From Trypanosoma brucei (Eukaryota), in NCBI GenBank assembly GCA_000002445.1, contig CP000071.1, forward strand, positions 448,001-512,000: 64,000 nucleotides of DNA, read 5' to 3'. The position numbers and the translations under genes were made by a program. Positions within the stretch are counted from its first letter, which is position 1. Each line of letters starts with the position of its first letter. Below are positions 1 through 44,232 of this stretch, one piece after another. The notes below the pieces were generated by a model. It did not search any database. It was not told the origin of the DNA and saw only the letters and a program-made list of their open reading frames with translations.

Positions 1-3000
1 TTTGGATAGTTGAACGATCTGCTGTCACGATGGGACATTAGTTCACATGTAACGAACGTCCCAGGATAACGACAACAAACGTGGGTCCGTGAAAAAACGA
101 GTTTTATACTGAGCGAAAGAATGTGCGTACATATCATCAGCATGAAATTATGTCCGACTCTCGTACAACTGACTATTTGGATGCGCCGCGGTTATACATA
201 TCCTCATCGAAATTTCTAAAGGGAGAGAACGGCTGGATCAGTGGCATGAAAATATTTGCAGCTTGTAGTGGGACGGAATGGCAATACTTCGCCCACAATG
301 CTTGGCTTTGAAGGTCGTCATAACAACGGGAAACTGTTAGGAGAGCCTAGCTCAATCAAACCAATGTAAATTAAGGCGGTGTGCTGATACGCCTGCGCAG
401 CGTACGGCCTTCTGAATATATACTTTTTAATTTCACTGTGTGGACACTGAGCAACTCACCATAGACGACTAGTTTACTTCGAGTCGTGTTAGCATTATGA
501 GGCGCCCTTCATTCTCTAGCCAGGTTATGTGGAGCAAAAACAAAAGCAACTGGGGGAGAAGTATGAAGGCGAAGTTTGGTGCTAGAACAGTATCAAATAC
601 AGTCGCGACGTTTGCGTCGGTTGCGCGCCAAAAACAGAAATTATATCATGCTAATAAACACTACTTAGCGGAAACGTCAGTATGACAGCGTGTCGACGTT
701 CCCGATGCGCGGGTAGACGGGATCGCCGTCAGATCGATTCCAGAAGAATCCCATCATTTACGTTCGGGGAAACTAAGACTCTGTTGACATGACGGTACGG
801 GGAATTGTGCGAAAGGGTACTGAGTTTGCAGCGTCTTTCCTCTGTGAGAGCTGGGTTGCGTATTCACCCTCACGGCAGTGGTGAGGAATCAGAGCACCTA
901 ACAGAGTGACCACCCTACTTCAGATACCAATACTACAAAAAAAGAAAAAGCAGGTATGTGAGAAGTGTCGATAAGAGTAACTTCCATATTTTTGCTTGAA
1001 GTTGAACATTGCGTCACATATGCACTTCTGGGAAGAACCCATACCTTTGTGAACCAACACAAACCGTGAGCAGTACTTTCAGACGTGGTGGGTGCATCCC
1101 CGGCACTGTTTTCTATTGTACGCCGCACAATAAGTAGCACCCCACCGAGCTACCAAATGCAGAACTGCGGCGGATCATCACGGACGAAAACACCAAAACG
1201 GCGTATGAATTCGCATTGCCTGGGCCCAGTAAACGCTGCAACCCATGGAGTCCTTTGATTCTTCCTTTGGAAATGTATAGAGGGGTGGAAACACTTGTTG
1301 CAGCTCTACTGCCCGGTTTGGGGTACGCCTCTGGTGTGAAGAAATAAACGGGTCGGGTTGGGAGCTTTCCATAGCGCGGTAAAAAACCATGACAGCTTCG
1401 TGTTAGTCGCTGCTCTCAGTACCGTTTAGCACAAAAGCCCGCTGTGGTGACGAACGCCCTCCAGGGCCATATGCGCCAGCATATACATGTTGTACTAACT
1501 CTTCTCGCTTCTATTGTAGCGGACATACACCCCATCTAGATTGATTCCATGCTTGGAAGTTCCGTGCATCAGCACGCCTGCGGCGTAGTATGACCTCTCC
1601 CTCTGCGCATTTGAGGGCGAACAAAAAATAGTTACAAAGCGTCAATGCTGACGCTCCTGGGCAGTGACTTGGAGGGGCGTCACTTTGGTAAGGGGCCGGT
1701 CTGCTTCTGATGGCTCGTTGTACCGCTGACGGATATGTGATTGAACATATGGTGACCGTTCTGTCGAACTGTAGGGCTTCTGTTTCTGAAAGATGATACT
1801 TCATACCACGGCAACTCTCGGGGGATAGCTTCTTATTGAGCCGGCCTCTGGTGTGGAGAGTTACTCCCCTTTTTTTCTGTCTTGGTGACAGAAGTGCGGT
1901 GCGTCCACTGTGGCAGTTGTGCACTGTATCGTACCTGAGTCTGGATGGGTAGAGGAATGATGTGCGGGAGCGCTTTCTCTGTTGCTTATGTGCTCGGCTT
2001 CGTACTGCCTTTTGACTGGGAAAGTCGGTGTTTGGAGTGTGCTGCCGTACTTTGGACGGTGGGGATTCTACTGTCCCGCGGCTTAACAAAAAAAAAAATC
2101 GTACGGTGGCACAGTCCCTGCCCACTACGGTGGATTTATGCGGTCATTACAGGGCAAAGGGTTTCTGGTTTGGATGCAGCGTGTCGCCGCTGTGTGCGCG
2201 TCGCAAACCTACTAAACGTTGTCACTTCAGCGCTACACAACGCGTAAGCCAACGCACGCAGGAAACACTTCTCATCATCTCCACTGTGTTTCCGCGGTCC
2301 TTTGCTTACCTTAGAGGGCGTGTCACGGTAGAATTTGTTGATGTGGTTCGCAATCTAATGAACTTGTCAAAAATGCTTAGCGGGGGCTGTTTTAGGGTTT
2401 GAGACAGGGGGTCAGGTGCGGTTTTAAGTTCTGTATCGTATCTTAATCGGCGTGGCATCCCGCTCTGACCTCTGTTCCGCATCCATTTCATGCGTTTCGC
2501 CTCATCTTCTTTAGCGGCGCACGCCTCCCTGGTATTGTCATGCAGGTGCCTTATTCCGCCCTGTGCGTCCCCGCCCCAAAAACGGAGCATAGCGCTATTG
2601 GCGCCTCTCTTGAAATGGCTTATCGACTCTTCGAAGCTTCCACCCATGTGAACCTGTTATCTCTTGCAACAATGCGGGTGCGCACACCTCCCCTCAAACT
2701 CAGCAGCATACCTTCTGTGGTGGGTTTCCGGCTCCAAGTTATTTCCGCAGAGTATGTGTGTGTTTAGTTGCATCAAGTGCGCCTTGTGTCGTCGTTTTGC
2801 CGGGGCGATGGTGTCGACCATTCACCCCACGTCCAGCTGCAGTTTTCTTTGGAGACTCACTCTTCGGTACGCAGCACGAGTTACATGCAAACGGCGAACA
2901 GACACAGGCGCGTAGCGTTCGAACGCGAAGGGGATCACTCATGTCCACTGCGCCAGGACCTGTCCCCTACGTCTCGAGAAATGAGCAAAAATCGACGAAG

Positions 3001-6000
3001 AGAAAGGCTTTTTGTTTGTGGTGCTTTCCTGCGCGTACGAAGCTACTCACTTTGGGAAGCCCACGTAGTATGACAACGCTGTCTTTCCGGTGCCTAAACG
3101 TCGTCGCTCAAGTCCCCTGATGGACGTTACCATCGCAATGCTAAGTGTGGCTGGTATATCTTAGTTAACTCTTCCTTCGGATGAAACTGCAGCCAGCTCC
3201 TCTTTTCGCATCATATGCGCTTCACCCCACAATATCGCACCATGCCACCGGGGTTTCATGGGAGAAATGACGTGGAATGGCAGATTGGGTGAAGGGTCAG
3301 GAAGGCATGACTCTTTCTGTGGCGGCGTATAGTGTTGATGTTTGGAAAGTTCTGCATGATCAGTCGATATCCTATACCCAGGTGCTGTGGGCGCAACGAA
3401 TGCCAGGGGCGATGGAGAGTGGAAATATCAGTTTGTGTTCACCGCCGTGCTCTTCCTCTGAGAGAAGGTGCCACAAAGCGCAGATCATCAATACTTCAAC
3501 GAAGAGAAGATAAGCTCAGTTTGAAGCGGCCGCCGAGTGTCGGCCGAGTGGTGATATCAAAATATCCCCCTACCCCACACTCCCTGCTTTCTTGGTGATT
3601 TAGCTCCGCAGCCACTCCGCCGAAACCTAATTCCGGTGGAGCGGAACGTTGACAGTTTGCCTCCCGTACCCAAAGGACTGCGAGACCTGGACACAACACT
3701 GAGGCGATAGGCATCGCCAGGAGAAAAGGCATTTGTCTTAGTTATCACTGCGTTTGGTTGGGGAAAGGGCGTGTTCCCAGTGCGGTGCTACCCAAGGCAC
3801 TTTTGTAGAACGCTGCTCATCGTTTGCTGTGCTTATCAAACCCGCCCCCTTACAAGCGAATGCCCACCAATCGGAGCCAGGGGCTGCAGGATCTCAAACC
3901 ACGTCGGCCGAAAGGTGGGGAACGCATTTCAAGGGATCACGACGCCGTTCGCTTGGAGACTTGTAACAGCGGGGGTTCAATGCCAAAAAGTTGCTCAGCG
4001 ATGCCTTTCTTAACCGACCGGAACGTCACAGAACATGAAACAGCGGCAGCGGCGCGTAGTGGTTGGCGAATAATAATAACCCCACCCCATTTTTAACATC
4101 TTTAGCAGTCCTCTCTGGGGCTATGGCTGCCAGGCGCCAACGATTTCACTATGAAGAACGGTTGTGAGGCTCGAAGTTAGTGTTTGTGAGTGTTTGAACC
4201 TCTTCGGCACGCTTCCGCACCCGGGATGAGGCAGAATAACCAGTGTGCCCACGGTGACAAAATGGCGGGACGTCGGCACAAGAGGCGGTTAAGGGATGCC
4301 AAATCGCCTGTCAAAACTAGTCGTTTTTTTTAAACCAAGGGTGCATCTCACTGAGGCCGACCAAGTGGCAGTGACGAGCCCCTTTACGAAGGCGCATTTA
4401 CCACAATGGTCCCTAAAAGAGGGCGCTAGCACACCCAAATACCAGCACCACCGAACTATAAGGCATCGATCAAACACTTTTTTGGCTGGTGGGAGCTTCT
4501 TGCCATCGACAGCTACGCCCCAGCCCACAAAGGTTTTTAAGGTAAATCCAGAAACGTTGGAAACGGGTACATTGTGCGAAGTACACGAGGAGGTCGTGCA
4601 CGCAGCCGTCGCACCGCGAGAGTTAAGGGCCTCACCTACAGATGGAGGACGACAAAAACAAACTTGCGGGAACCGGCTTTCCCAGATCGTCACAGTACGC
4701 GGGGCACGGAAAGCGAGTGCGCCGGAATGTCGGATGATGTTCAACCAGTGACCTCTCATCCACTTTGTGGAGCCCATTTGTCAGCGGCTTTATTGCCCAA
4801 CCGACCACACAACACCAATCCAAGGGTGGCACCTCCTTGCCCACTTCCGAGATGAAGACTACCACTTATAACAACGACCCTTTCCCTAAACCACCCTTGG
4901 TTTCCCAACACACGCACCTCCGAGGACATAAGCTAGGAAAATACAACCACCAATGTGCCGCACCCGGCAATACCACGGCATACCTACAAATATTCCAAGA
5001 CCTTCTGCATATCTGAACGAATAGCTGCCAGGTTGGACGCCCCAAAGGGCGGAAGTGCATCACACCACGAGGCACGCAACCTCTCGACACCAGTGCTGAA
5101 AAGCACAACCCTGTTGCCGGCACTTGCAAACCAACTGGTGTCACCACAAGCACTTCGACGAGCTGGTTTAAAAAAATCCGGCCAGCCGTCCGACAACACC
5201 TTTAAACATGAAGGGGGACGTCATGCCGCATCCATCAGTTAGAACATTTAGACAAAACATTGGGTTATTTGTTAAAAATAGATCCACAACAGCATAGTTA
5301 AAGTATAAACAAAAGATCGCCAAATACAGATTTTGGAGGGAAAACTTCGCGATGCACAAACATCAGAAACAACAGAGCTCCACACACACTCTTCAAACCA
5401 CTTCACAGTCAGCGCACCAGCGTCACATCGCAACCGTCACCCCTCCAATTGGGCATAACCCCGCTACAAACAACAATAAATTACCAGCCGCACGCGTACA
5501 AGATAAAACAACGACAACGATCACATATCACGCACTTCGACCGATCCCCACAAATCCGAAAAAAAAAAAATTACCTAAGCATATTCATTTAAAAACATGC
5601 AACAAAGAAACAAGTAAAATAAAACAATCACACAAGAGATCGCCCAATAACAGAAAAAAACGAAAATAATAATTCGATAACATCATTTAAATATCAAAAC
5701 AAAAAGGAAAAATAAACAAATAATTCAAAAGAATAATATATATAACAATTCCGATGCACATCTATTATTCCATACAAAAGGGTAGGAAAGCAAGTTATGA
5801 AGTTTCCCTGCCTCCTTCCCCATTTTTCCCTCCTTCCTTGCTGTCGTGTTGTCAGCCCTGTGCGCAAAAATTACCGTTATTGTATATGAGATCGGCCATG
5901 GTGGTAGCAACTTTTTCTGGGAGTATGGTCAGTGTGTGTTTCCTCTTGTATTTGCTTGTGTTTATGCGTGTGTGTGTTTGTGCTGGTGCCGAAGGGAGAG

Positions 6001-6097
6001 AAGGGGAACTTTTAACGGCAACCAGACAGTGAAGAAACTTAGAAACGGACGATTGGCATAGATTTAACACAAGTTGAATGACGGCTGCAGCTCTAGG

Positions 6098-6103
6098 AAA
6101 AAA
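6098..6103 (-). terminator. Pol III oligo(T) terminator downstream of 5S gene (present in every unit)
   Basis: The plus strand 'ggaaaaaagttt' gives CCAAACTTTTTTCC on the 5S strand, 4-5 nt past the 3' end of the 5S gene. The same run recurs at +735/736 in each unit. Confidence 0.7.
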
Positions 6104-6108
6104 GTTTG

Positions 6109-6229
6109 GGAGAGTACAACACCCCGGGTTCCAGCGCCATCACTGATCGCCGTACTAACGAGGCCTGTGGCCGCTTAACTTCACAAATCGGACGGGATAT
6201 GGTGCATTCGGCCAAGTATGGTCGTACCC
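6109..6229 (-). rRNA. 5S: 5S ribosomal RNA gene (copy 1)
   Basis: The reverse complement of 6109-6229 reads GGGTACGACCATACTTGGCCGAATGCACCATATCCCGTCCGATTTGTGAAGTTAAGCGGCCACAGGCCTCGTTAGTACGGCGATCAGTGATGGCGCTGGAACCCGGGGTGTTGTACTCTCC. This is a canonical kinetoplastid-type 5S rRNA of about 120 nt. A T6 run follows on the same strand as a Pol III terminator. The 3' end is uncertain by a few nt. Confidence 0.93.
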
Positions 6230-6843
6230 GACGTCCGGTAAACCGAATGCGTGCATTTATTCCGATACCCGTCAAACTTGTTCATGAGGGATTTGAAGTG
6301 TAGGAGACGCGAAAAAAAAAAAAAGAAAAGAAGAAAAGCACCTTTCTTACCACTCCATACCATCCCCCCTCCAGTACCTACAGACACCATTTCCATCACA
6401 CTACACGACACTAAAAAGTGGAAGAAAACATAACTTTCCTCTGAGTCCGGAGGGGGGGGGGTTGGGGGCGGATGAAACAGCCGTTCCGATGCACATCTAT
6501 TATTCCATACAAAAGGGTAGGAAAGCAAGTTATGAAGTTTCCCTGCCTCCTTCCCCATTTTTCCCTCCTTCCTTGCTGTCGTGTTGTCAGCCCTGTGCGC
6601 AAAAATTACCGTTATTGTATATGAGATCGGCCATGGTGGTAGCAACTTTTTCTGGGAGTATGGTCAGTGTGTGTTTCCTCTTGTATTTGCTTGTGTTTAT
6701 GCGTGTGTGTGTTTGTGCTGGTGCCGAAGGGAGAGAAGGGGAACTTTTAACGGCAACCAGACAGTGAAGAAACTTAGAAACGGACGATTGGCATAGATTT
6801 AACACAAGTTGAATGACGGCTGCAGCTCTAGGAAAAAAGTTTG

Positions 6844-6964
6844 GGAGAGTACAACACCCCGGGTTCCAGCGCCATCACTGATCGCCGTACTAACGAGGCC
6901 TGTGGCCGCTTAACTTCACAAATCGGACGGGATATGGTGCATTCGGCCAAGTATGGTCGTACCC
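6844..6964 (-). rRNA. 5S: 5S ribosomal RNA gene (copy 2)
   Basis: Same sequence as copy 1, offset by 735 bp. Confidence 0.92.
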
Positions 6965-7579
6965 GACGTCCGGTAAACCGAATGCGTGCATTTATTCCGA
7001 TACCCGTCAAACTTGTTCATGAGGGATTTGAAGTGTAGGAGACGCGAAAAAAAAAAAAAAGAAAAGAAGAAAAGCACCTTTCTTACCACTCCATACCATC
7101 CCCCCTCCAGTACCTACAGACACCATTTCCATCACACTACACGACACTAAAAAGTGGAAGAAAACATAACTTTCCTCTGAGTCCGGAGGGGGGGGGGTTG
7201 GGGGCGGATGAAACAGCCGTTCCGATGCACATCTATTATTCCATACAAAAGGGTAGGAAAGCAAGTTATGAAGTTTCCCTGCCTCCTTCCCCATTTTTCC
7301 CTCCTTCCTTGCTGTCGTGTTGTCAGCCCTGTGCGCAAAAATTACCGTTATTGTATATGAGATCGGCCATGGTGGTAGCAACTTTTTCTGGGAGTATGGT
7401 CAGTGTGTGTTTCCTCTTGTATTTGCTTGTGTTTATGCGTGTGTGTGTTTGTGCTGGTGCCGAAGGGAGAGAAGGGGAACTTTTAACGGCAACCAGACAG
7501 TGAAGAAACTTAGAAACGGACGATTGGCATAGATTTAACACAAGTTGAATGACGGCTGCAGCTCTAGGAAAAAAGTTTG

Positions 7580-7700
7580 GGAGAGTACAACACCCCGGGT
7601 TCCAGCGCCATCACTGATCGCCGTACTAACGAGGCCTGTGGCCGCTTAACTTCACAAATCGGACGGGATATGGTGCATTCGGCCAAGTATGGTCGTACCC
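7580..7700 (-). rRNA. 5S: 5S ribosomal RNA gene (copy 3)
   Basis: Same sequence as copy 1, at a 736 bp period. Confidence 0.92.
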
Positions 7701-8315
7701 GACGTCCGGTAAACCGAATGCGTGCATTTATTCCGATACCCGTCAAACTTGTTCATGAGGGATTTGAAGTGTAGGAGACGCGAAAAAAAAAAAAAAGAAA
7801 AGAAGAAAAGCACCTTTCTTACCACTCCATACCATCCCCCCTCCAGTACCTACAGACACCATTTCCATCACACTACACGACACTAAAAAGTGGAAGAAAA
7901 CATAACTTTCCTCTGAGTCCGGAGGGGGGGGGGTTGGGGGCGGATGAAACAGCCGTTCCGATGCACATCTATTATTCCATACAAAAGGGTAGGAAAGCAA
8001 GTTATGAAGTTTCCCTGCCTCCTTCCCCATTTTTCCCTCCTTCCTTGCTGTCGTGTTGTCAGCCCTGTGCGCAAAAATTACCGTTATTGTATATGAGATC
8101 GGCCATGGTGGTAGCAACTTTTTCTGGGAGTATGGTCAGTGTGTGTTTCCTCTTGTATTTGCTTGTGTTTATGCGTGTGTGTGTTTGTGCTGGTGCCGAA
8201 GGGAGAGAAGGGGAACTTTTAACGGCAACCAGACAGTGAAGAAACTTAGAAACGGACGATTGGCATAGATTTAACACAAGTTGAATGACGGCTGCAGCTC
8301 TAGGAAAAAAGTTTG

Positions 8316-8436
8316 GGAGAGTACAACACCCCGGGTTCCAGCGCCATCACTGATCGCCGTACTAACGAGGCCTGTGGCCGCTTAACTTCACAAATCGGAC
8401 GGGATATGGTGCATTCGGCCAAGTATGGTCGTACCC
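8316..8436 (-). rRNA. 5S: 5S ribosomal RNA gene (copy 4)
   Basis: Same sequence as copy 1, at a 736 bp period. Confidence 0.92.
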
Positions 8437-9051
8437 GACGTCCGGTAAACCGAATGCGTGCATTTATTCCGATACCCGTCAAACTTGTTCATGAGGGATT
8501 TGAAGTGTAGGAGACGCGAAAAAAAAAAAAAGAAAAGAAGAAAAGCACCTTTCTTACCACTCCATACCATCCCCCCTCCAGTACCTACAGACACCATTTC
8601 CATCACACTACACGACACTAAAAAGTGGAAGAAAACATAACTTTCCTCTGAGTCCGGAGGGGGGGGGGGTTGGGGGCGGATGAAACAGCCGTTCCGATGC
8701 ACATCTATTATTCCATACAAAAGGGTAGGAAAGCAAGTTATGAAGTTTCCCTGCCTCCTTCCCCATTTTTCCCTCCTTCCTTGCTGTCGTGTTGTCAGCC
8801 CTGTGCGCAAAAATTACCGTTATTGTATATGAGATCGGCCATGGTGGTAGCAACTTTTTCTGGGAGTATGGTCAGTGTGTGTTTCCTCTTGTATTTGCTT
8901 GTGTTTATGCGTGTGTGTGTTTGTGCTGGTGCCGAAGGGAGAGAAGGGGAACTTTTAACGGCAACCAGACAGTGAAGAAACTTAGAAACGGACGATTGGC
9001 ATAGATTTAACACAAGTTGAATGACGGCTGCAGCTCTAGGAAAAAAGTTTG

Positions 9052-9172
9052 GGAGAGTACAACACCCCGGGTTCCAGCGCCATCACTGATCGCCGTACTA
9101 ACGAGGCCTGTGGCCGCTTAACTTCACAAATCGGACGGGATATGGTGCATTCGGCCAAGTATGGTCGTACCC
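9052..9172 (-). rRNA. 5S: 5S ribosomal RNA gene (copy 5)
   Basis: Same sequence as copy 1, at a 736 bp period. Confidence 0.92.
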
Positions 9173-9787
9173 GACGTCCGGTAAACCGAATGCGTGCATT
9201 TATTCCGATACCCGTCAAACTTGTTCATGAGGGATTTGAAGTGTAGGAGACGCGAAAAAAAAAAAAAGAAAAGAAGAAAAGCACCTTTCTTACCACTCCA
9301 TACCATCCCCCCTCCAGTACCTACAGACACCATTTCCATCACACTACACGACACTAAAAAGTGGAAGAAAACATAACTTTCCTCTGAGTCCGGAGGGGGG
9401 GGGGGTTGGGGGCGGATGAAACAGCCGTTCCGATGCACATCTATTATTCCATACAAAAGGGTAGGAAAGCAAGTTATGAAGTTTCCCTGCCTCCTTCCCC
9501 ATTTTTCCCTCCTTCCTTGCTGTCGTGTTGTCAGCCCTGTGCGCAAAAATTACCGTTATTGTATATGAGATCGGCCATGGTGGTAGCAACTTTTTCTGGG
9601 AGTATGGTCAGTGTGTGTTTCCTCTTGTATTTGCTTGTGTTTATGCGTGTGTGTGTTTGTGCTGGTGCCGAAGGGAGAGAAGGGGAACTTTTAACGGCAA
9701 CCAGACAGTGAAGAAACTTAGAAACGGACGATTGGCATAGATTTAACACAAGTTGAATGACGGCTGCAGCTCTAGGAAAAAAGTTTG

Positions 9788-9908
9788 GGAGAGTACAACA
9801 CCCCGGGTTCCAGCGCCATCACTGATCGCCGTACTAACGAGGCCTGTGGCCGCTTAACTTCACAAATCGGACGGGATATGGTGCATTCGGCCAAGTATGG
9901 TCGTACCC
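9788..9908 (-). rRNA. 5S: 5S ribosomal RNA gene (copy 6)
   Basis: Same sequence as copy 1, at a 736 bp period. Confidence 0.92.
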
Positions 9909-10523
9909 GACGTCCGGTAAACCGAATGCGTGCATTTATTCCGATACCCGTCAAACTTGTTCATGAGGGATTTGAAGTGTAGGAGACGCGAAAAAAAAAA
10001 AAAGAAAAGAAGAAAAGCACCTTTCTTACCACTCCATACCATCCCCCCTCCAGTACCTACAGACACCATTTCCATCACACTACACGACACTAAAAAGTGG
10101 AAGAAAACATAACTTTCCTCTGAGTCCGGAGGGGGGGGGGGTTGGGGGCGGATGAAACAGCCGTTCCGATGCACATCTATTATTCCATACAAAAGGGTAG
10201 GAAAGCAAGTTATGAAGTTTCCCTGCCTCCTTCCCCATTTTTCCCTCCTTCCTTGCTGTCGTGTTGTCAGCCCTGTGCGCAAAAATTACCGTTATTGTAT
10301 ATGAGATCGGCCATGGTGGTAGCAACTTTTTCTGGGAGTATGGTCAGTGTGTGTTTCCTCTTGTATTTGCTTGTGTTTATGCGTGTGTGTGTTTGTGCTG
10401 GTGCCGAAGGGAGAGAAGGGGAACTTTTAACGGCAACCAGACAGTGAAGAAACTTAGAAACGGACGATTGGCATAGATTTAACACAAGTTGAATGACGGC
10501 TGCAGCTCTAGGAAAAAAGTTTG

Positions 10524-10644
10524 GGAGAGTACAACACCCCGGGTTCCAGCGCCATCACTGATCGCCGTACTAACGAGGCCTGTGGCCGCTTAACTTCACA
10601 AATCGGACGGGATATGGTGCATTCGGCCAAGTATGGTCGTACCC
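10524..10644 (-). rRNA. 5S: 5S ribosomal RNA gene (copy 7)
   Basis: Same sequence as copy 1, at a 736 bp period. Confidence 0.92.
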
Positions 10645-11258
10645 GACGTCCGGTAAACCGAATGCGTGCATTTATTCCGATACCCGTCAAACTTGTTCAT
10701 GAGGGATTTGAAGTGTAGGAGACGCGAAAAAAAAAAAAAGAAAAGAAGAAAAGCACCTTTCTTACCACTCCATACCATCCCCCCTCCAGTACCTACAGAC
10801 ACCATTTCCATCACACTACACGACACTAAAAAGTGGAAGAAAACATAACTTTCCTCTGAGTCCGGAGGGGGGGGGGTTGGGGGCGGATGAAACAGCCGTT
10901 CCGATGCACATCTATTATTCCATACAAAAGGGTAGGAAAGCAAGTTATGAAGTTTCCCTGCCTCCTTCCCCATTTTTCCCTCCTTCCTTNCTGTCGTGTT
11001 GTCAGCCCTGTGCGCAAAAATTACCGTTATTGTATATGAGATCGGCCATGGTGGTAGCAACTTTTTCTGGGAGTATGGTCAGTGTGTGTTTCCTCTTGTA
11101 TTTGCTTGTGTTTATGCGTGTGTGTGTTTGTGCTGGTGCCGAAGGGAGAGAAGGGGAACTTTTAACGGCAACCAGACAGTGAAGAAACTTAGAAACGGAC
11201 GATTGGCATAGATTTAACACAAGTTGAATGACGGCTGCAGCTCTAGGAAAAAAGTTTG

Positions 11259-11379
11259 GGAGAGTACAACACCCCGGGTTCCAGCGCCATCACTGATCGC
11301 CGTACTAACGAGGCCTGTGGCCGCTTAACTTCACAAATCGGACGGGATATGGTGCATTCGGCCAAGTATGGTCGTACCC
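11259..11379 (-). rRNA. 5S: 5S ribosomal RNA gene (copy 8)
   Basis: Same sequence as copy 1, at a 735 bp period. Confidence 0.92.
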
Positions 11380-11987
11380 GACGTCCGGTAAACCGAATGC
11401 GTGCATTTATTCCGATACCCGTCAAACTTGTTCATGAGGGATTTGAAGTGTAGGAGACGCGAAAAAAAAAAAAAGAAAAGAAGAAAAGCACCTTTCTTAC
11501 CACTCCATACCATCCCCCCTCCAGTACATACAGACACCATTTCCATCACACTACACGACACTAAAAAGTGGAAGAAAACATAACTTTCCTCTGAGTCCGG
11601 AGGGGGGGGGTTGGGGGCGGATGAAACAGCCGTTCCGATGCACATCTATTATTCCATACAAAAGGGTAGGAAAGCAAGTTATGAAGTTTCCCTGCCTCCT
11701 TCCCCATTTTTCCCTCCTTCCTTGCTGTCGTGTTGTCAGCCCTGTGCGCAAAAATTACCGTTATTGTATATGAGATCGGCCATGGTGGTAGCAACTTTTT
11801 CTGGGAGTATGGTCAGTGTGTGTTTCCTCTTGTATTTGCTTGTGTTTATGCGTGTGTGTGTTTGTGCTGGTGCCGAAGGGAGAGAAGGGGAACTTTTNAC
11901 GGCAACCAGACAGTGAAGAAACTTAGAAACGGACGATTGGCATAGATTTAACACAAGTTGAATGACGGCTGCAGCTCTAGGAAAAAA

Positions 11988-12047
11988 NNNNNNNNNNNNN
12001 NNNNNNNNNNNNNNNNNNNNNNNNNNNNNNNNNNNNNNNNNNNNNNN
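11988..12047. other. Assembly gap (60 N) inside the 5S array; it replaces the position where a 9th 5S copy is expected
   Basis: A run of n characters. The expected next 5S copy (about 11994-12114) falls entirely in the gap. Isolated n bases occur at 10990 and 11898. Confidence 0.95.
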
Positions 12048-12408
12048 GTTCCGATGCACATCTATTATTCCATACAAAAGGGTAGGAAAGCAAGTTATGA
12101 AGTTTCCCTGCCTCCTTCCCCATTTTTCCCTCCTTCCTTGCTGTCGTGTTGTCAGCCCTGTGCGCAAAAATTACCGTTATTGTATATGAGATCGGCCATG
12201 GTGGTAGCAACTTTTTCTGGGAGTATGGTCAGTGTGTGTTTCCTCTTGTATTTGCTTGTGTTTATGCGTGTGTGTGTTTGTGCTGGTGCCGAAGGGAGAG
12301 AAGGGGAACTTTTAACGGCAACCAGACAGTGAAGAAACTTAGAAACGGACGATTGGCATAGATTTAACACAAGTTGAATGACGGCTGCAGCTCTAGGAAA
12401 AAAGTTTG

Positions 12409-12441
12409 GGAGAGTACAACACCCCGGGTTCCAGCGCCATC
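12409..12441 (-). pseudogene. Truncated 5S rRNA gene fragment (3'-terminal about 33 nt only) at the right edge of the array
   Basis: The sequence 'gggagagtacaacaccccgggttccagcgccatc' matches the 3' part of 5S (minus strand). It diverges at 12442 into unrelated sequence. Confidence 0.8.
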
Positions 12442-12467
12442 TCGCATAAAGACGGAAAGGGATTCTC

Positions 12468-12714
12468 TTCCACATTACCGGAGAGCAGCATCTTATTGCG
12501 GATGATACTGCTGACAGCACGCTGGCACGTGCCCAGGGACCGAAAAATGAAAAACAGTGTCCCAACAAGACGCTGCTGATCCCTGTGCTGTATGATGCCG
12601 TATCCGGAGCAAAGCAGTGTTCCCCATGAAAGGAACGCTGCTGGCTCTTGGCTTCAGCCGATGAAAGTGGGTACTGGACCCTGGCACTCGTTGAGGTTGG
12701 CGGCGTCGGCAGGG
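12468..12714. repeat. Inverted-repeat arm A (about 247 bp), partner of 13928-14174
   Basis: The reverse complement of this segment is about 90% identical to 13928-14174. Examples are ccagggtccagtacc, agccagcagcgttcctttcatggggaacactgct and ggatcagcagcgtcttgttgggacactgtttttcatt. The two arms encode near-identical peptides in the ORF track (12152..12727 minus and 13734..14282 plus). Confidence 0.85.
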
Positions 12715-13927
12715 TATTCGCGAGCAAAACACCACAGAAGGTGAGGTGGTCGGCAACCTAAAAGGAATCATTACTCAAAGAAAATAACGCCTTGGGGCTG
12801 CCCGATGGACTCGCCCTTTCGGGTCGATGGTTGCGTATGAAAACCGTTTCTCCTTTCATATCGATCCTTTGCTGCGTATGCGGAGCCGAAAACGCCGAGG
12901 GGCCACCCTTGCAACATCCGTCAATTGCGCGCACATATATTACGGCAAATGTCCCACATCCCCGTTATGGATCAGTTTGCACATATTATCGATTCCACAG
13001 CAAATCCTTGGTCGATTAAGGCGTGTTGGCTTTGCATCGCGGCATTATGAATGAGTATTACGTATCCGCGTTGGCAGAAATTAGTGCACGCACAGAGCGT
13101 CTTGGCCAGCAAGCAGCGGTGATAAATTTGGGTCGATGAGTGTTGGACGTGATGGTCTTGCGGCTACAGAAGATTGTGGCGATAAGCGAGATCAAACAAG
13201 CAAGTCCCTTAACTAAAGGTCGGAATGGCTCAGATTATTACTTTTTGCTCGGATTGGAAGGAGTGTGTGGTTTTTGCGTTTGGTGTGGATTACGACAAGT
13301 CGTCTGCTGGAGATCCCGGCACTGATACGGAAGCATTTCTAATGGAACAGGGACAGTGTAGTGCCCCTCGATTGGTTGGTGACACCCAAGACAGCCAAGT
13401 CCAATTCACACCGAGCAAGTCGTTAAGTTCGCATTCGGGGATTAGGACGCTCTCGATATTACGCGACTACTCTCCACTTTGAAGCTCAAGGAACATGTAA
13501 CAACGCTCACAACAACCAAAGTCGAACATATTCTCGCTCCGTGGGAGATGATGACGCACCCCGTTAGGAGAGGAGGCTTTACAGCATGCTGCAGGCACAA
13601 TTTGTGGAAGAGCATGGCATGGATCCTCACATTATTTTCCAACCAATGAAACACATCTATCCGTTCCGCATGCCGAGGAACACTGTCAGCCACTTGGACA
13701 AATGCACCGCCATGTTGACTAATATGTAGAATAGTGTCCCTATGGTGTAAGCCATGTCTTAGACGAAGGATAAGAGCCATGGGAGCCGCCAGGGCGTTGT
13801 CCCTTCAAGACGCACGGTTATACGATAACAAGGAGGGCGCACGCCACACGCCTGTTGAATACGCAGGACAAGGCTTCCATTCCTTTACAGCAAGTGCACG
13901 TCCCGCTGCTGGAGATATATTGAATCC

Positions 13928-14174
13928 CCTGGCGATGCCGGCCACCTCAACGTGGTGCCAGGGTCCAGTACCCCGTATCACCGGGGAAAGCAAGAGCCAG
14001 CAGCGTTCCTTTCATGGGGAACACTGCTGTGCTCCGGCTACGGCATCATACAGCACAGGGATCAGCAGCGTCTTGTTGGGACACTGTTTTTCATTTGTCG
14101 GTCCCTGGGCACGTGCCAGCGTGCTGTCAGCAGTATCATCCGCAATAAGATGCTGCTGTCCGGTGATGTGGAAC
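13928..14174. repeat. Inverted-repeat arm B (about 247 bp), partner of 12468-12714
   Basis: See arm A. The arms are separated by about 1.2 kb of unique sequence. Confidence 0.85.
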
Positions 14175-15639
14175 TCCAAAAAAGGATTGCTAATTGACAT
14201 CTTTGGGAGAGTCCAGGGTGGGGGGCTTCTCGCCCCATCTGCTGTATTCCGTTCATCTGCGGAAATACAACAAGAGTTATAGAGGGTGTGTTAGGATGAA
14301 TAAAAAAAGGGAGGCTCTGCCACAGTTGCCAGACCGATAGCATCTCAGGGCTCTACGGTGATGGCTGATGGCCGCGCCAGTGGGGGGAAACTTTCACGAA
14401 GGCACGAAGAAAATTCCAAAAAAAAAATATTGAATCATTTCTCGCTTAAATTCGAGTGTGAAATGTAGATTTCAACATCTCTGGGGACTGATCGGAATGA
14501 GACCAAAAGGGACCAGTGAAAGGAGCCCTCATGTTATTTCCATCGGCGATGATCGTCTACTTTGGAAGGTCGGTATCGTAAAGGATGCCTCCTCCGCACC
14601 AACAGGAGCTCGGGTCATCCCTTTTCTCAGTTGCAGAGGATAAACCCTCCAACGAGCGTCGCTGGTGAATTGCGGGGCCTAAAGAGAAATAACAAAAGCG
14701 GATGAACCTTACGAGGCAATTGTTCCTTTTGGAACACATTTCAAAATACCTCCATGCGGTTACTATCCTGAGTTGTCGACTTTTTCTGTCTGTTTTTTTT
14801 ATTTTTTCTTAGAGGCGTTACGTCGTCGTCTTTTGCCTCGGACAGAGAACTTGTCCCCGCCACAGAGGCCGCTTTGTTGCCACTGTCCGCACTTGGTTTA
14901 GTAAGTGGGTATTACTTTCTTGCCTGTTTAAAAAGAAGAAACGCACGGTTACACCCAATTGGGAACCCGCAGTTGATTTGGTCACAGATGGCTCTTTGAG
15001 GGGTTGTGGGTCTGGGGCATGTCTTCTTATTGGATTCCGGTGAGGTGAAAGTAATGTTATGTGGTGTCGTTGGTTTAAGTTCCCTTTTCTTATCATGCAG
15101 GCTCAGGCCCGTGTCCTCTGACTCTCCTCAGTAGCATTCGTGGAATCCTTTCCCCCTGAGTATTGACATTTGGGTTGATAATACATTCCTGTAAGGCGCG
15201 GAACCAAAAGGAAACACAAAAGCCTACGGTCTTTCTGTGGCCATGGATGAGATGTTTATGATATTTGATTTCCACAACATTAGCACAAATTACTCGTTTA
15301 ACCGCTCCGTCAGCAAACCGGCGGTCGGCTCCCGCGGAGGCACACGGTTAAACTGTGCAAAGTTGGTGAAAGAGTTTAACTGACAAAAGGAAGTGGCGGT
15401 GTCCCGAGGCTTTTGGGGACCACAAGAACTGCCCTTTCACAGGTCTACTGTGAAATAAATATTCCGCTGCTGCTTGCCACCCAAGTTTGTGTCAGATGGG
15501 TATTGATGATTATATATGGTTATACATTTAGTTTATAATTCCTTGCTCCTCGCTTTAATTATATTTAATAAGTTGACCATTCGAACCGCACCGAAACTCG
15601 TATTTTTAAAAGATTTGTTTTCACTCGTCTTGGGGTTTT

Positions 15640-16032
15640 GTAGATTTTTTTGTATTTACACTCCTTTTTATTCGTTTCAAAGTCGATAATTCTGTTGATT
15701 TTCAATTTAAATGTTGTAAAAGTATTTTTTCTCTTAAATTTATGAGATTCTTCCGTGGAGCTTCAGTTTTTTCTTTGTTATTTGTTTTGTCTTTTATACC
15801 TAAAAATATTTGGAGAGAATCAGTGTGTTTGTGTTTTTTTGTGTAATATTTACCCATATATTTCAGTGGGGAGATTACAGAAGTAATATATATATATATA
15901 AAAGATCCTTTGTATTGCTTATGTGCTTTGTCTTTAAGCGGTTGTTGCTTTTCCTTTTTAACATATATTTTTGAAACATGATTTGGCCACATATTTTTTA
16001 TATTAGTTTTATTTAAATATTCTGTAGATTGA
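15640..16032 (+). promoter_or_regulatory. Pyrimidine-rich intergenic tract with candidate spliced-leader acceptor AGs upstream of TSR1 (trans-splicing / coupled polyadenylation signal region)
   Basis: T/C-rich runs (ttttttttgtatttacactcctttttattcgtttc ... ttttttatattagttttatttaaatattctgtag) lie immediately 5' of the ATG at 16033. This is typical of kinetoplastid polypyrimidine-tract/AG processing signals. The precise acceptor is not determinable from sequence. Confidence 0.4.
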
Positions 16033-18366
16033 ATGGCACGTAATAAGGCTCACAAGCAGAGGTTTGCATCTAAACGTGCTGTTTCGGGTTTGGCAAAGGG
16101 ACGCACTATTCCAACGAAAAAGGAGAGTGTAAAAGCGCTTCATCCGTTGGAGGCCAAAGAGAGATCAAGGCAGTCTTTAGCTGCCCTGCGGGACAAGAAA
16201 AGGGCCAATGCCCTTCAACAAAAGAGAATCGGGAAAATATCCGGGTTGCCTCGGGCTGTTGGTGTTCTACCAGCAAATGAATCGGCTAACACGAACGCGG
16301 TCATTCGGGGCTTGTGCTTTTCTTTGGGGAGTGAAGTTCGTGACACTTGCCTCCCGTTCACTGCAAGTTCGAAAGAAAAGAAGGCATCTTTTACATTTAT
16401 GTCAGAGCGGAATGGCAATCTTCAGAGTTGTGTTGACATCGGTAAGGTCGCTGACTTTTTGGTGTTAGCACTGGATGTCTCGCGATCCGTACAGGAAATG
16501 ATACGTAACGTGCAAGAATCTATGGAAGTAGAAGATTGTGATGATGTTGGCTCCGTTGTGGCTACTACATGGTACGGAGATATTGGTCTTTGTATCACTG
16601 CGTTCACAAGAGAGCTGATTGCAGCTCTTAATGCCCAAGGGGTGCCGAGTGTAGCTGTAGTACTGCAAAATCTTGATACGTTCACTGAAAAGCAGCGTCA
16701 TAAAGTTATTAAGGTTCACCAGCGTTACTTTTTATCTGTTCTCCCTGAAACGACGAAGGTATTTACTGTGATTGATCAGGGTGACTATGACCCGGTGCTT
16801 CGGCATCTCCATGTCGCTAAACTTCGTTCACTAGCATGGCGTGATCAACATCCGTATTTGATAGTGGAGGAGGGATATTTTGATGATGATGCTCAAAAAC
16901 TTGTCGTAGGTGGTTACCTTCGTGGCATGGCACTCTCGGCCGAGCAATTGATTCACCTCACAAACCACGGGACGTTTCAGATTGAGAACATATGCCGGGG
17001 GGACCCAAGGGGTGATGAAGCCCAGGTTATTGATTCGTGTGAGAAGGCACACAGAGAGTCACTTGACTACGTTCAAGTGAATGCCACTCTTGACGATGCA
17101 GACGGACCAACTGAGGAAGATATTGCCTATCACAAATCAATAGGATTCAAAAAGGTCAAAGTTCCAGAGGGTGTATCTGATTACCAGGCAGCATGGTATG
17201 AATTCGAGGGTAGTGATATAAACTCGGAGACAGATATTGGTGAATCGGTACCGGGGGACGATGAGTATGCTGCGTCTGATCACTTTTCTCAGGGGACTTT
17301 AAGAACAACAGTTGACTTTCTTAAGGTGGAGGATGTAATTCGTTTGGAGCGGATGAACGACGACGAACGAGCTGCGGAAATACAGAGACTTAAAGAGGAG
17401 AGTGAAGAAGATGCGTGGAATCCAGATATTGTAGACACACCTTTCAATCTACCAGCAAGGCAAAGATTTATGAAATATCGCGGACTCAAGAGCTTCCAAA
17501 CGGGTAAATGGGACGCGGCGGAGAATCTCCCGCCACATTACGCTTATATTTACAAGTTACAGGGCATAACCCGCATTCGTGAGGCAGCGCTAGCGAAATG
17601 CGCCAGTGGAAGTGTCGCAACTGAGCAATTTGTGTATATAACACTCGTGGATGTTCCAAGTAAGGTCTGGAGAAGCGCTGTCGAAGGCGGTTGCATTATT
17701 GCATCGGGTCAGCTGGAGCATGAGCAGAAATGGTCAGTCCTTCACTTTAGGATTCAAAGGAGCTCGGATTGCGATGAACCAATTAAGTCAAAAATACCTA
17801 TGCTCGCTCATATAGGTTTTAGGAAGTTTTACGTGTCACCCATCTTCAGTGACATTACTACCTCAGATCGTACGAAGTTTGCCCGCTTTTTTCATCCAAA
17901 CGAAAAATTTTGTATGGCGAGTTTTTTTGGCCCTATATCGTATCAGCCTTGCCCTATTCTTTTGTTTGAAGTTCCGTCACTGGAGGAGCAGAATGAGGAC
18001 AATTCATTGCATTTGGCTTGCTTTGGAGGGGCACTACCGCCAAATCCAGACCTGTTGGTGCTCAAGCGTGCGGTACTGACGGGAAGAGTAGCGACTATTC
18101 ACAAAAAACAAATTGTAGTCAAATACATGTTTTTCAACGACGAGGACGTGCAGTGGTTTCAATCTGTGGACCTTCGCACTCGGTTGGGGAGACGTGGGAA
18201 AATAATAAAGGCTGTGGGAACTCGTGGGCTGTTTAAAGCATCCTTGAACGATCAGGTAATGCAGCATGATCTTGTTTGCATGGATCTTTATAAGCGTGTC
18301 TTCCCGAAGTGGACAACTTTGCCGTTTTGCATTTCGGATGTTCCGAAAGTTGTTGCCGAAGAGTAG
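16033..18366 (+). CDS. TSR1: Ribosome biogenesis protein TSR1 (BMS1/TSR1 family, AARP2CN/DUF663 C-terminal domain, no P-loop)
   Basis: A 777-aa ORF with an ATG start. The N-terminus is basic (MARNKAHKQRFASKRAV...). No GxxxxGKS P-loop is present, which argues against BMS1. The C-terminal region (VLTGRVATIHKKQIVVKYMFFNDEDVQWFQSVDLRTRLGRRGKI) is typical of the BMS1/TSR1 C-terminal domain. Confidence 0.8.
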   Translation: MARNKAHKQRFASKRAVSGLAKGRTIPTKKESVKALHPLEAKERSRQSLAALRDKKRANALQQKRIGKISGLPRAVGVLPANESANTNAVIRGLCFSLGSEVRDTCLPFTASSKEKKASFTFMSERNGNLQSCVDIGKVADFLVLALDVSRSVQEMIRNVQESMEVEDCDDVGSVVATTWYGDIGLCITAFTRELIAALNAQGVPSVAVVLQNLDTFTEKQRHKVIKVHQRYFLSVLPETTKVFTVIDQGDYDPVLRHLHVAKLRSLAWRDQHPYLIVEEGYFDDDAQKLVVGGYLRGMALSAEQLIHLTNHGTFQIENICRGDPRGDEAQVIDSCEKAHRESLDYVQVNATLDDADGPTEEDIAYHKSIGFKKVKVPEGVSDYQAAWYEFEGSDINSETDIGESVPGDDEYAASDHFSQGTLRTTVDFLKVEDVIRLERMNDDERAAEIQRLKEESEEDAWNPDIVDTPFNLPARQRFMKYRGLKSFQTGKWDAAENLPPHYAYIYKLQGITRIREAALAKCASGSVATEQFVYITLVDVPSKVWRSAVEGGCIIASGQLEHEQKWSVLHFRIQRSSDCDEPIKSKIPMLAHIGFRKFYVSPIFSDITTSDRTKFARFFHPNEKFCMASFFGPISYQPCPILLFEVPSLEEQNEDNSLHLACFGGALPPNPDLLVLKRAVLTGRVATIHKKQIVVKYMFFNDEDVQWFQSVDLRTRLGRRGKIIKAVGTRGLFKASLNDQVMQHDLVCMDLYKRVFPKWTTLPFCISDVPKVVAEE

Positions 18367-18769
18367 CAATTCTAAATTTAAGGACGCTGGTGGGAGGGTA
18401 GCTTTCTTTTTTTTAAATAGTGGGTCGCATTAACAGGCAATGAAGTAACTAGTCGTTTAATCAGACTTTATTTGCTTAACCATCATTAGCTAAGTTAGAA
18501 AATTTCCCCCAGATAATACATTCGTGTTTATTTATTTGGATGTTCAATTTTTGCACTTGTCCCAACTTTCAAGTTAATCTGTAGTAAGGAGAAGGAGGGG
18601 GAGAATACTTAGATATTTTTTCCACCTTGAAAGGCATAACTTTTATCCTTTTGTGGGCAATCTCGACCAACATATACATAGGAAGGCAGATAAGTTTCAC
18701 TGTTAGAACAGTATCAATTAAGGGGTTAGCGTGGGAGAGAAACATTCGAATCAAAAAAAAAAAAAGGAA

Positions 18770-20329: not shown

Positions 20330-20568
20330 CGATTTGCGCCAGAGTGTGGGGGAGGTGGGGAGGCTGGAGACGGGTAGTGAGGGTGATGTGGGGCTTAAGG
20401 TTTCGCGTTAAGAGGTATGTGCACGGTTACCGGCTAAGGCCGGAATGCTGTTAAGTTCGTTGGTTGTCATATCTGTACCGCAGAAGTGCAAATTCTCTTT
20501 CACCCACGTCTTTTCCTGGATCTACCCCTGTGTGACGGTCTTGAAGAAAATATTTATGCTGGGCATTG

Positions 20569-21069: not shown

Positions 21070-21240
21070 GTTAAGTATCGATGGTAGCATGCGGCGGCTG
21101 TCGATGCTTGTGAAGAGTTAATATTACGTCCTCGTTGTCTTGTTGCCATTGTATGCCACTACCTGTGGTAATGCTGCGCTCATAATATTTCCATTGTTGT
21201 CGTTTATGGACTCACTTTCGCTTTTTGTCGAACACTTAGT

Positions 21241-27213: not shown

Positions 27214-27234
27214 ATGTGTGTGTGTGTGTGTGTG
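27214..27234. repeat. (TG)n microsatellite
   Basis: gtgtgtgtgtgtgtgtgtgtg, then cgcg. Confidence 0.9.

Positions 27235-42032: not shown

Positions 42033-42037
<5 letters not shown>

Positions 42038-42069
<32 letters not shown>
42038..42069. repeat. (GT)16 microsatellite
   Basis: gtgtgtgt... x16 in the intergenic region upstream of the helicase gene. Confidence 0.9.

Positions 42070-44180: not shown

Positions 44181-44227
<47 letters not shown>
44181..44227. repeat. (AC)n microsatellite (about 23 units) inside the helicase intron
   Basis: acacacac... run. Confidence 0.9.

Positions 44228-44232
<5 letters not shown>

What the first reader, a model, noticed from the sequence alone, without database searches (positions are those of the whole stretch)
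5749..12441. Tandem 5S rRNA gene array (Pol III) oriented opposite to the downstream Pol II gene block
There are 8 complete 5S genes plus a fragment, one per 735-736 bp unit, all on the minus strand and each followed by a T6 terminator. The units are virtually identical, consistent with concerted evolution. The array lies directly upstream of a long same-strand protein-coding block on the opposite strand, and the block's first gene, TSR1, encodes a ribosome-biogenesis factor. Pol III loci commonly sit at boundaries of Pol II transcription units in kinetoplastids.
Basis: partly seen in the sequence, partly recalled or inferred. Interest (0 to 1): 0.55.

Follow-up and report, generated by a model that had tools for sequence, protein, structure and literature searches.

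The report
Known Trypanosoma brucei 5S rRNA array

Summary
Rfam finds eight full-length, identical 5S rRNA genes (89.1 bits, cut-off 38), all on the minus strand. There is one per 734-736 bp unit, each followed by a T6 run 7 nt downstream. The array spans exactly 5749-12441 and ends in a 33-nt 5S 3' fragment.

It hides at least one more gene, so eight is an assembly number; the literature estimates several hundred copies.

Tsr1 (16033-18366) is 100% identical to the T. brucei-group protein. Published work already describes this single chromosome 8 cluster, its positioned nucleosomes, and Pol III (RPC1, C82) and TBP occupancy.

Concerted evolution is supported. The spacers carry 7 fixed substitutions and an indel against T. 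b. equiperdum, each uniform within its own array.

The Tsr1 adjacency looks coincidental. T. theileri, T. vivax, T. rangeli and L. major keep the downstream gene order but have no 5S gene upstream.

One extra finding: the 3.6 kb between array and Tsr1 holds two inverted ~245-nt 5' ends of ingi/L1Tc-type retroposons, and one abuts the truncated 5S.

Verdict: already known, low interest.

The parts
5749..12441 (-). Tandem 5S rDNA array as assembled: 10 copies of the spacer, 8 complete 5S genes, one assembly gap and one terminal 5S fragment. The unit is 734-736 bp.
   Evidence: the repeat finder, unit comparison, boundary register comparison.
6111..6229 (-). 5S rRNA gene 1. T6 terminator at 6098-6103; TATA-like AATAAAT at 6255-6261 (-26 to -32).
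   Evidence: Rfam RF00001 89.1 bits; T6 and AATAAAT positions.
6846..6964 (-). 5S rRNA gene 2. T6 at 6833-6838; AATAAAT at 6990-6996.
7582..7700 (-). 5S rRNA gene 3. T6 at 7569-7574; AATAAAT at 7726-7732.
8318..8436 (-). 5S rRNA gene 4. T6 at 8305-8310; AATAAAT at 8462-8468.
9054..9172 (-). 5S rRNA gene 5. T6 at 9041-9046; AATAAAT at 9198-9204.
9790..9908 (-). 5S rRNA gene 6. T6 at 9777-9782; AATAAAT at 9934-9940.
10526..10644 (-). 5S rRNA gene 7. T6 at 10513-10518; AATAAAT at 10670-10676.
11261..11379 (-). 5S rRNA gene 8. T6 at 11248-11253; AATAAAT at 11405-11411.
11988..12047 (.). Assembly gap (60 N) inside the array. It replaces at least unit positions 356-735, which include a whole 5S gene, plus an unknown number of further units.
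   Evidence: Sequence read; N-run coordinates.
12409..12441 (-). Terminal 5S fragment: the 3' 31 nt of the Rfam-defined gene plus 2 nt of trailer. The gene is cut at about position 88, and its T6 run lies at 12398-12403.
   Evidence: Exact match to the same 33 nt in all 8 genes; homology ends at 12441. Not scored by Rfam at E<=1.
12450..12700 (-). Left arm of an inverted repeat: a ~245-nt 5' segment of an ingi/L1Tc-clade retroposon. It has the same sense as the 5S genes and abuts the truncated 5S.
   Evidence: Inverted repeat I1/I2, 188 nt at 96%; alignments A1 and A2; blastn 68% over 208 nt to T. theileri L005:2097-2301.
13928..14168 (+). Right arm of the inverted repeat: the same retroposon 5' segment, sense strand plus, pointing towards Tsr1. 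It starts CCCTGGCGATGCCGG (Pr77-like).
   Evidence: blastn 70.8% over 236 nt to L005:2069-2302; 12/15 match to the L1Tc Pr77 5' primer quoted in PMC4748587.
16033..18366 (+). Tsr1 (40S ribosome biogenesis factor), the first gene of the plus-strand gene block. It is not part of the array; it is listed because the finding refers to it.
   Evidence: Pfam; 100% identity to the T. brucei-group protein P0001.

Best explanation
The region is the chromosome 8 5S ribosomal RNA gene array of a Trypanosoma brucei-group genome. It consists of head-to-tail repeats of a ~736-bp unit, each carrying one 119-nt 5S gene on the minus strand.

**How it works (inferred, except where noted).**
- Each gene is an independent RNA polymerase III unit of the classical type 1 kind.
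- Internal box A, intermediate element and box C lie within the gene. This is inferred from conservation with the 5S consensus.
- A TATA-like AATAAAT sits at -32 to -26. This is inferred.
- Termination occurs in the T6 run 7 nt past the mature 3' end, followed by 3' trimming. This is inferred from general Pol III biology.

**Evolution and copy number.** The units are kept uniform by concerted evolution through unequal exchange or gene conversion; this was tested here. The eight genes in the window are a collapsed representation of a much longer array.

**Context.** The array lies in an ORF-free boundary region at the head of a plus-strand polycistronic Pol II unit that starts with Tsr1. Its upstream edge is a junction between a truncated 5S gene and a retroposon 5' fragment. 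The neighbourhood with Tsr1 is positional, not functional.
For: - **Gene identity:** eight full-length RF00001 hits at 89.1 bits, identical in sequence, with only 2 non-canonical pairs flagged in the alignment.
- **Array structure:** exact tandem structure and edges; T6 and AATAAAT at fixed offsets in all eight genes.
- **Organism:** Tsr1 is 100% identical to the T. brucei-group protein, with T. congolense next at 74%. The same array and the same right-hand junction are present in T. b. equiperdum CM010679.1.
- **Concerted evolution:** 7 substitutions and a 3-nt indel are fixed between the two arrays and uniform within each.
- **Literature on the locus:** a single cluster on chromosome 8, eight identical genes in the Lister 427 reference, ~620-bp spacers and three positioned nucleosomes per unit (PMC5359979); clustered on chromosome 8 (PMC8311968); several hundred copies, and box A/IE/box C present but not functionally characterised (PMC6562600).
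- **Literature on Pol III:** RPC1 and TBP ChIP-seq enrichment (PMC8559703); C82 ChIP and RNAi (PMC11894013).
Against: Nothing contradicts the identification. The limits are:
- Uniformity of the units could be partly exaggerated by assembly collapse or consensus polishing. The only within-array differences are homopolymer lengths.
- The T. congolense locus could not be retrieved and the T. grayi contig ends inside Tsr1. The age of the array's position is therefore only bounded, not dated.
Confidence: 0.97

Rival explanations
1. The 5S array and Tsr1 are placed side by side for a functional reason: co-ordinated control of ribosome biogenesis through a shared divergent regulatory region.
For: Tsr1 is a ribosome biogenesis factor. 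It is the first gene after the array, in divergent orientation.
Against: - The order Tsr1, acyl-CoA dehydrogenase, MaoC-dehydratase, SIN1-PH, EamA is conserved in T. theileri, T. vivax, T. rangeli and L. major. None of them has a 5S gene (Rfam gathering threshold) or a tRNA gene in the 6.6-10 kb upstream of Tsr1.
- Tsr1 serves the 40S subunit (Pfam description), whereas 5S is a large-subunit RNA.
- Trypanosomatid Pol II units are constitutively transcribed with little control at initiation (PMC8311968).
- 3.6 kb of retroposon-bearing DNA separates the two.
Confidence: 0.03
2. The repeat is a composite unit that also encodes another small RNA or a protein. For example, it could be a spliced-leader/5S linked repeat, as reported for some other kinetoplastids (own knowledge, not checked here).
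For: The spacer is long (~617 bp) and strongly homogenised. It contains mechanical ORFs of up to 154 aa.
Against: - No match to the conserved spliced-leader 3' half, even with 3 mismatches.
- No other Rfam family at E<=1 in 5000-16100, and no tRNA.
- The ATG ORF of the spacer (5754-6032) is absent from a 15-billion-protein collection.
- The spacer, not the gene, accumulates substitutions between T. brucei lineages.
Confidence: 0.03
3. The array in the window is a short relic or a mis-assembled copy, and the 8-gene count is the true biological number.
For: The Lister 427 reference is described as having eight 5S genes (PMC5359979).
Against: - A 60-N gap sits inside the array and removes at least one gene.
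- The independent T. b. equiperdum assembly also breaks in the array, with 100 N.
- The literature estimate is several hundred copies (PMC6562600).
Confidence: 0.05

Closest known systems
Trypanosoma brucei chromosome 8 5S rRNA gene cluster (Cordingley 1985 repeat; Tb927.8.1381 and neighbours; Lister 427 chr8:454,171-460,512)
   Same: - Same organism group.
- Same gene count as the 427 reference: eight identical genes.
- Same ~620-bp spacers and a similar ~6.3-kb span (PMC5359979).
- Tandem, and not linked to tRNA genes (PMC2695483).
   Different: Nothing of substance. This is the same locus. I could not verify which strain or assembly the window comes from. It differs from T. b. equiperdum CM010679.1 by 0.55% in the coding block and by ~1.4% in the spacer.
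Trypanosoma cruzi tandem 5S rRNA gene array
   Same: Tandem head-to-tail organisation, several hundred copies, not linked to tRNA genes (PMC6562600; PMC2695483).
   Different: Different species, and a different unit length according to my own recollection (not checked here). Chromosomal context was not compared because no T. cruzi contig long enough was available (P0006 lies on a 4,964-nt contig).
Leishmania dispersed 5S rRNA genes
   Same: Same RNA family, with the same presumed internal type 1 promoter (PMC6562600).
   Different: Leishmania has only 9-11 copies, dispersed and always next to tRNA genes (PMC2695483). The L. major Tsr1 locus has a 7.6-kb divergent strand-switch region with no 5S or tRNA gene.
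Classical eukaryotic 5S rDNA arrays (Xenopus, plants, most animals) with type 1 Pol III promoters and concerted evolution
   Same: One ~120-nt gene per short repeat, a T-run terminator, near-identical units within a genome, and spacer divergence between lineages.
   Different: The transcription factor requirements in trypanosomatids are only partly known. Box A/IE/box C are present but have not been functionally characterised (PMC6562600).
ingi/RIME/L1Tc-clade retroposons with the Pr77 hallmark (for the inverted-repeat arms next to the array)
   Same: - The arms share ~70% identity over ~235 nt with the segment directly 5' of a T. theileri endonuclease/RT/RNase H element.
- They start with a Pr77-like CCCTGGC...GCCGG.
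- Such elements accumulate in strand-switch regions (PMC4748587; PMC4035085).
   Different: Only the 5' ~245 nt are present. No ORFs, poly(A) tail or target-site duplications were identified. No T. brucei ingi/RIME reference sequence was available for direct comparison.

Membership tests
5S rRNA (Rfam RF00001) | Covariance-model score at or above the curated gathering cut-off over the full model | tested here: met
   Eight hits, 89.1 bits against a cut-off of 38, model positions 1-120 of 120, E = 9e-18.
5S rRNA (Rfam RF00001) | About 120 nt with a three-helix-junction secondary structure (helices I-V) | tested here: met
   119 nt. The alignment to the consensus structure has posterior probability '*' throughout and only two non-canonical pairs flagged.
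Pol III type 1 transcription unit | Internal control region (box A, intermediate element, box C) within the gene | tested here: inconclusive
   The corresponding segments (GAAGUUAAGCGGCC, GUUAGUAC) align with conserved consensus positions. The literature says the three elements are present in trypanosomatid 5S genes but have not been functionally characterised (PMC6562600). There is no functional test.
Pol III type 1 transcription unit | Run of four or more T shortly downstream of the gene on the coding strand | tested here: met
   T6 lies 7 nt after the Rfam 3' end in all eight genes, and also after the gap-cut unit and the terminal fragment.
Pol III type 1 transcription unit | Occupancy by and dependence on RNA polymerase III | not testable with these tools
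   Literature for this locus in T. brucei: RPC1 and TBP ChIP-seq enrichment (PMC8559703); C82 ChIP and RNAi reducing 5S rRNA to 18% (PMC11894013).
Concertedly evolving tandem rDNA array | Head-to-tail units of constant length | tested here: met
   Ten unit starts with spacing of 734-736 bp.
Concertedly evolving tandem rDNA array | Units more alike within a genome than between related genomes (fixed, homogenised differences) | tested here: met
   Seven window units against six T. b. equiperdum units: 7 fixed substitutions plus a 3-nt indel, all in the spacer and none in the gene. Five further variants are only partly spread in T. b. equiperdum. Caveat: both arrays are collapsed assemblies.
Spliced-leader/5S linked repeat | A spliced-leader (mini-exon) gene inside the same repeat unit | tested here: not met
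   No match to CAGTTTCTGTACTATATTG with up to 3 mismatches anywhere in the window. No other Rfam family at E<=1.
Pr77-bearing ingi/L1Tc-clade retroposon (inverted-repeat arms) | Conserved 5' hallmark at the element start, and homology to the 5' end of an autonomous element | tested here: met
   12/15 match to the L1Tc Pr77 5' primer. 68-71% identity over 208-236 nt to the region immediately 5' of the T. theileri endonuclease/RT/RNase H ORFs.
Pr77-bearing ingi/L1Tc-clade retroposon (inverted-repeat arms) | 3' poly(A) tail, target-site duplications, and coding or RIME-type 3' half | tested here: not met
   There is no significant tblastn match of the T. theileri element ORFs in either flank (best E = 0.05-0.4). 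The arms end after ~245 nt without a poly(A) tail. They are fragments, not complete elements.

The most novel reading that the evidence does not exclude
The position of the T. brucei 5S array may be a lineage-specific acquisition. On this reading the array, or its seed, was placed into an ancestral Pol II start region upstream of Tsr1 by a rearrangement involving ingi/RIME-type retroposons.

The conserved junction of a 3'-truncated retroposon 5' end with a 5'-truncated 5S gene would be the scar of that event. The head-to-head pair of Pr77-type promoter segments between array and Tsr1, possibly together with the GT-rich plus-strand tract in every spacer, would contribute to Pol II initiation of the Tsr1 unit or to insulation between Pol III and Pol II domains.

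My evidence does not exclude this. It does not test it beyond the sequence anatomy and the absence of the array at the orthologous site in four other species.
Probability: 0.12. Interest if true: 0.35.

Novelty: already known. Interest (0 to 1): 0.07.

Why it matters
It matters little as a discovery. The locus has been known since the 1980s and has been studied by nucleosome mapping, ChIP-seq and Micro-C.

Its practical value is as a caution. Copy number, unit uniformity and any read-mapping signal at this locus come from a collapsed, gapped assembly. The adjacency to a ribosome-biogenesis gene should not be over-read.

The retroposon-to-5S junction at the array edge is a small, concrete marker. 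It could be used to date when the array settled at this site in salivarian trypanosomes.

Tried and rejected
- **Tandem Repeats Finder** did not report the array because its longest period is 500. The repeat finder did.
In its place I used tblastn with the ORFs found upstream of Tsr1 in T. theileri, T. vivax, T. rangeli and L. major. Nothing was significant (best E about 0.05).
- **Exact look-up of ten ATG ORFs (85-167 aa)** from both flanks and the spacer: none is in the protein collection. I treat the flanks and the spacer as non-coding.
- **Spliced-leader linkage:** rejected.
- **Association with tRNA genes:** rejected.
- **Other RNA families in or near the array:** none at E<=1. The 33-nt 5S fragment is too short to score.
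- **Dispersed repeats shared between the flanks and the rest of the window:** none. No repeats within the left flank.
- **T. congolense orthologous locus:** not on record. **T. grayi:** the contig ends inside Tsr1, so it is uninformative.
- **Strand switch to the left of the array:** composition skew is clearly positive only from ~16 kb onwards and is weakly negative at 4-6 kb. With no genes in 1-5748 I could not establish the orientation of the neighbouring unit on the left.


Full report

Yes. An Rfam scan of the whole window at gathering thresholds returns exactly eight hits, all to 5S_rRNA (RF00001) and all on the minus strand. Each covers the full model and scores 89.1 bits against a cut-off of 38. 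A more permissive scan of 5000-16100 (E<=1) adds nothing else. The eight 119-nt sequences are identical.

The repeat finder shows ten in-register copies of the spacer starting at 5749, 6484, 7220, 7956, 8692, 9428, 10164, 10899, 11633 and 12049, with spacing of 734-736 bp. Complete units differ only by one base in an A-run and one in a G-run.

Similarity to the unit begins at 5749, after an A-rich tract, and stops at 12441. The last 33 nt of the array equal the 3' end of a 5S gene. Each gene is followed on its own strand by CCCAAAC and then T6, for example 6098-6103.

Tandem Repeats Finder missed the array only because its longest period is 500.

**2.

A run of 60 N at 11988-12047, and single Ns at 10990 and 11898, lie inside the array. 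The gap starts immediately after the T6 position of unit 9 and ends at the first base of unit 10. It therefore hides at least 380 nt, including a complete gene, and possibly any number of whole units.

The independent T. b. equiperdum assembly (GCA_003543875.1, CM010679.1; locus L001) also has a 100-N gap in its copy of the array and shows only six genes.

So 'eight genes plus a fragment' is an assembly count. A review citing Cordingley 1985 gives several hundred 5S genes for T. brucei (PMC6562600).

**3. Whose genome is this, and is the locus known?**

The ORF at 16033-18366 has the Tsr1 domains (RIBIOP_C 3e-90, AARP2CN, Tsr1_G-like). It is 100% identical to the T. brucei-group protein, and the next best match is T. 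congolense at 74%.

The literature describes this locus in detail:
- 5S genes clustered on chromosome 8 (PMC8311968).
- Tandem, and not associated with tRNA genes (PMC2695483). This agrees with zero tRNA genes in the window.
- Minimal contacts with the Pol I rDNA loci in Micro-C (PMC11666725).

RPC1 and TBP are enriched over the 5S cluster (PMC8559703). C82 binds RNAP III-dependent genes, and its knock-down lowers 5S rRNA to 18% (PMC11894013).

**4. How it most likely works.**

Each unit is an autonomous Pol III type 1 gene.

*Shown here:*
- The RNA family and its structure.
- The fixed T6 run 7 nt beyond the Rfam 3' end.
- A TATA-like AATAAAT at -32 to -26 of every gene.
- A T13-14 tract about 80-110 nt upstream on the gene strand.

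*Inferred from general Pol III knowledge and the cited review:*
- Internal box A, intermediate element and box C direct initiation.
- Pol III stops in the T6 run, giving a precursor a few nucleotides longer than the mature RNA, which is then trimmed.

The AATAAAT lies inside the nucleosome-depleted region reported upstream of the gene (PMC5359979). Its role is untested.

**5. Concerted evolution.**

I aligned seven complete units from the window with six from T. b. equiperdum.
- The 5S gene is invariant.
- The spacer carries seven substitutions and a 3-nt indel that are fixed between the two arrays and uniform within each.
- Five further variants are present in only some T. b. equiperdum units.

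This is the expected signature of homogenisation within arrays. The caveat is that both arrays are collapsed assemblies.

For scale, the two genomes are 99.45% identical over 12 kb of the coding block, 97.7% in the left flank and 96.5% in the right flank.

**6. Context and the Tsr1 question.**

From 16033 to the end of the window all long ORFs are on the plus strand. Their order (Tsr1, acyl-CoA dehydrogenase, a 166-aa protein, MaoC dehydratase, SIN1-PH protein, EamA transporter) matches the called genes in T. theileri, T. vivax, T. rangeli, T. grayi and L. major.

No gene is called, and no ORF is known, between the array and Tsr1. Tsr1 is therefore the first gene of the block, but it lies 3.6 kb from the array.

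In T. theileri, T. vivax, T. rangeli and L. major there is no 5S gene and no tRNA gene within 6.6-10 kb upstream of Tsr1. In L. major, Tsr1 is the first gene after a 7.6-kb divergent strand-switch region. In T. theileri a retroelement sits there.

The site is thus an old boundary of a Pol II unit, while the 5S array at that site is seen only in the T. brucei group among the genomes I could read. T. congolense was not retrievable. Tsr1 is a 40S factor and 5S is a large-subunit RNA. I see no support for a functional link.

The left flank (1-5748) has no ORF longer than 204 aa, no known protein and no internal repeats. The orientation of the next unit to the left lies outside the window.

**7. 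Something extra at the array edge.**

The stretch between array and Tsr1 contains an inverted repeat: 188 nt at 96%, extendable to ~235-245 nt, with arms at about 12450-12700 and 13928-14168.

Both arms match (68-71% over 208-236 nt) a segment of the T. theileri locus that lies immediately 5' of ORFs with endonuclease, reverse transcriptase and RNase H domains. The shared segment starts CC(C/T)TGGC(G/A)ATGCC. The published 5' primer for the L1Tc Pr77 hallmark is CCCTGGCTCAGCCGG (PMC4748587), a 12/15 match.

I therefore read the arms as 5' fragments of ingi/L1Tc-clade retroposons. These elements are known to accumulate in strand-switch regions (PMC4748587, PMC4035085).

The right arm points towards Tsr1. 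The left arm has the same sense as the 5S genes, and homology to the T. theileri element continues to within about 10-25 nt of the truncated 5S gene. The array's upstream edge is therefore a junction between a 3'-truncated retroposon 5' end and a 5'-truncated 5S gene. That fits a deletion or recombination event better than a simple retroposition.

The junction is conserved in T. b. equiperdum, so it is not an assembly artefact. No retroposon ORFs, poly(A) tail or target-site duplications were found.

**8. Verdict.**

The finding is correct and its interpretation is supported, but the object is a textbook, already annotated locus. The useful corrections are:
- the assembly gap, and hence the meaningless copy number;
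- the 119-nt gene length by Rfam;
- the 3.6-kb retroposon-bearing separation from Tsr1;
- the lack of conserved 5S-Tsr1 synteny.

Novelty: already known. Interest: low.

Noticed in passing
window 12450-12700 (minus sense) and 13928-14168 (plus sense): Inverted repeat of ~245 nt (188 nt at 96%) between the 5S array and Tsr1. Both arms resemble the 5' end of an ingi/L1Tc-type retroposon with a Pr77-like start. The left arm abuts the truncated terminal 5S gene in the same sense.
   Followed up: yes
window 11988-12047; also 10990 and 11898: A 60-N assembly gap and two single Ns inside the array. The T. b. equiperdum assembly has a 100-N gap in its array too (L001:1437-1536).
   Followed up: yes
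window 1-5748: 5.7 kb to the left of the array has no ORF above 204 aa, no protein known to a 15-billion-sequence collection and no internal repeats. It ends in a ~190-nt A-rich tract (about 5560-5748) that directly abuts the array. Whether that tract is a retroposon tail was not tested.
   Followed up: partly
window 14203-14213: The 11-mer TTTGGGAGAGT recurs about 35 nt beyond the right inverted-repeat arm. It is the plus-strand reading of the 5S 3' end plus trailer. It may be chance or a relic of another 5S fragment. There is no Rfam hit there at E<=1.
   Followed up: no
window 12300-16100 versus L001:6277-10068; window 16033-28000 versus L001:10001-21967: Between the window and T. b. equiperdum, the non-coding stretch next to the array is only 96.5% identical (left flank 97.7%), against 99.45% for the adjacent 12-kb coding block.
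   Followed up: partly
L005:2069-8250 (T. theileri NBCO01000027.1): A LINE-like element with endonuclease, reverse transcriptase and RNase H ORFs in several broken frames sits directly upstream of the T. theileri Tsr1 gene. This is the position where T. brucei has the retroposon fragments and the 5S array.
   Followed up: partly
L008:16349-16822 and 17940-18413 (L. major FR796403.1): The MaoC-dehydratase gene downstream of Tsr1 is duplicated in tandem in L. major but single in the Trypanosoma loci.
   Followed up: no
window 6111-6229 (5S gene) versus primers quoted in PMC11894013: The qPCR primers listed in that paper for the T. brucei 5S gene Tb927.8.1381 differ from the 5S sequence in this window at 2, 5 and 6 positions. 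They resemble the paper's L. major primers. I could not check the TREU927 sequence itself.
   Followed up: partly
window 42037-42069, 44181-44238, 54440-54465, 59582-59624: Simple dinucleotide microsatellites lie between genes of the plus-strand block: (TG)16, (AC)26, (AT)13 and a TG-rich 8-mer repeat.
   Followed up: no
window 5901-6000 and the same position in every unit: Each spacer has a ~100-nt tract that is about 75% G+T on the plus strand, the strand of the Tsr1 gene block. GT-rich elements have been reported to drive Pol II initiation in T. brucei (PMC5579346, title and abstract only). The relevance here is untested.
   Followed up: no
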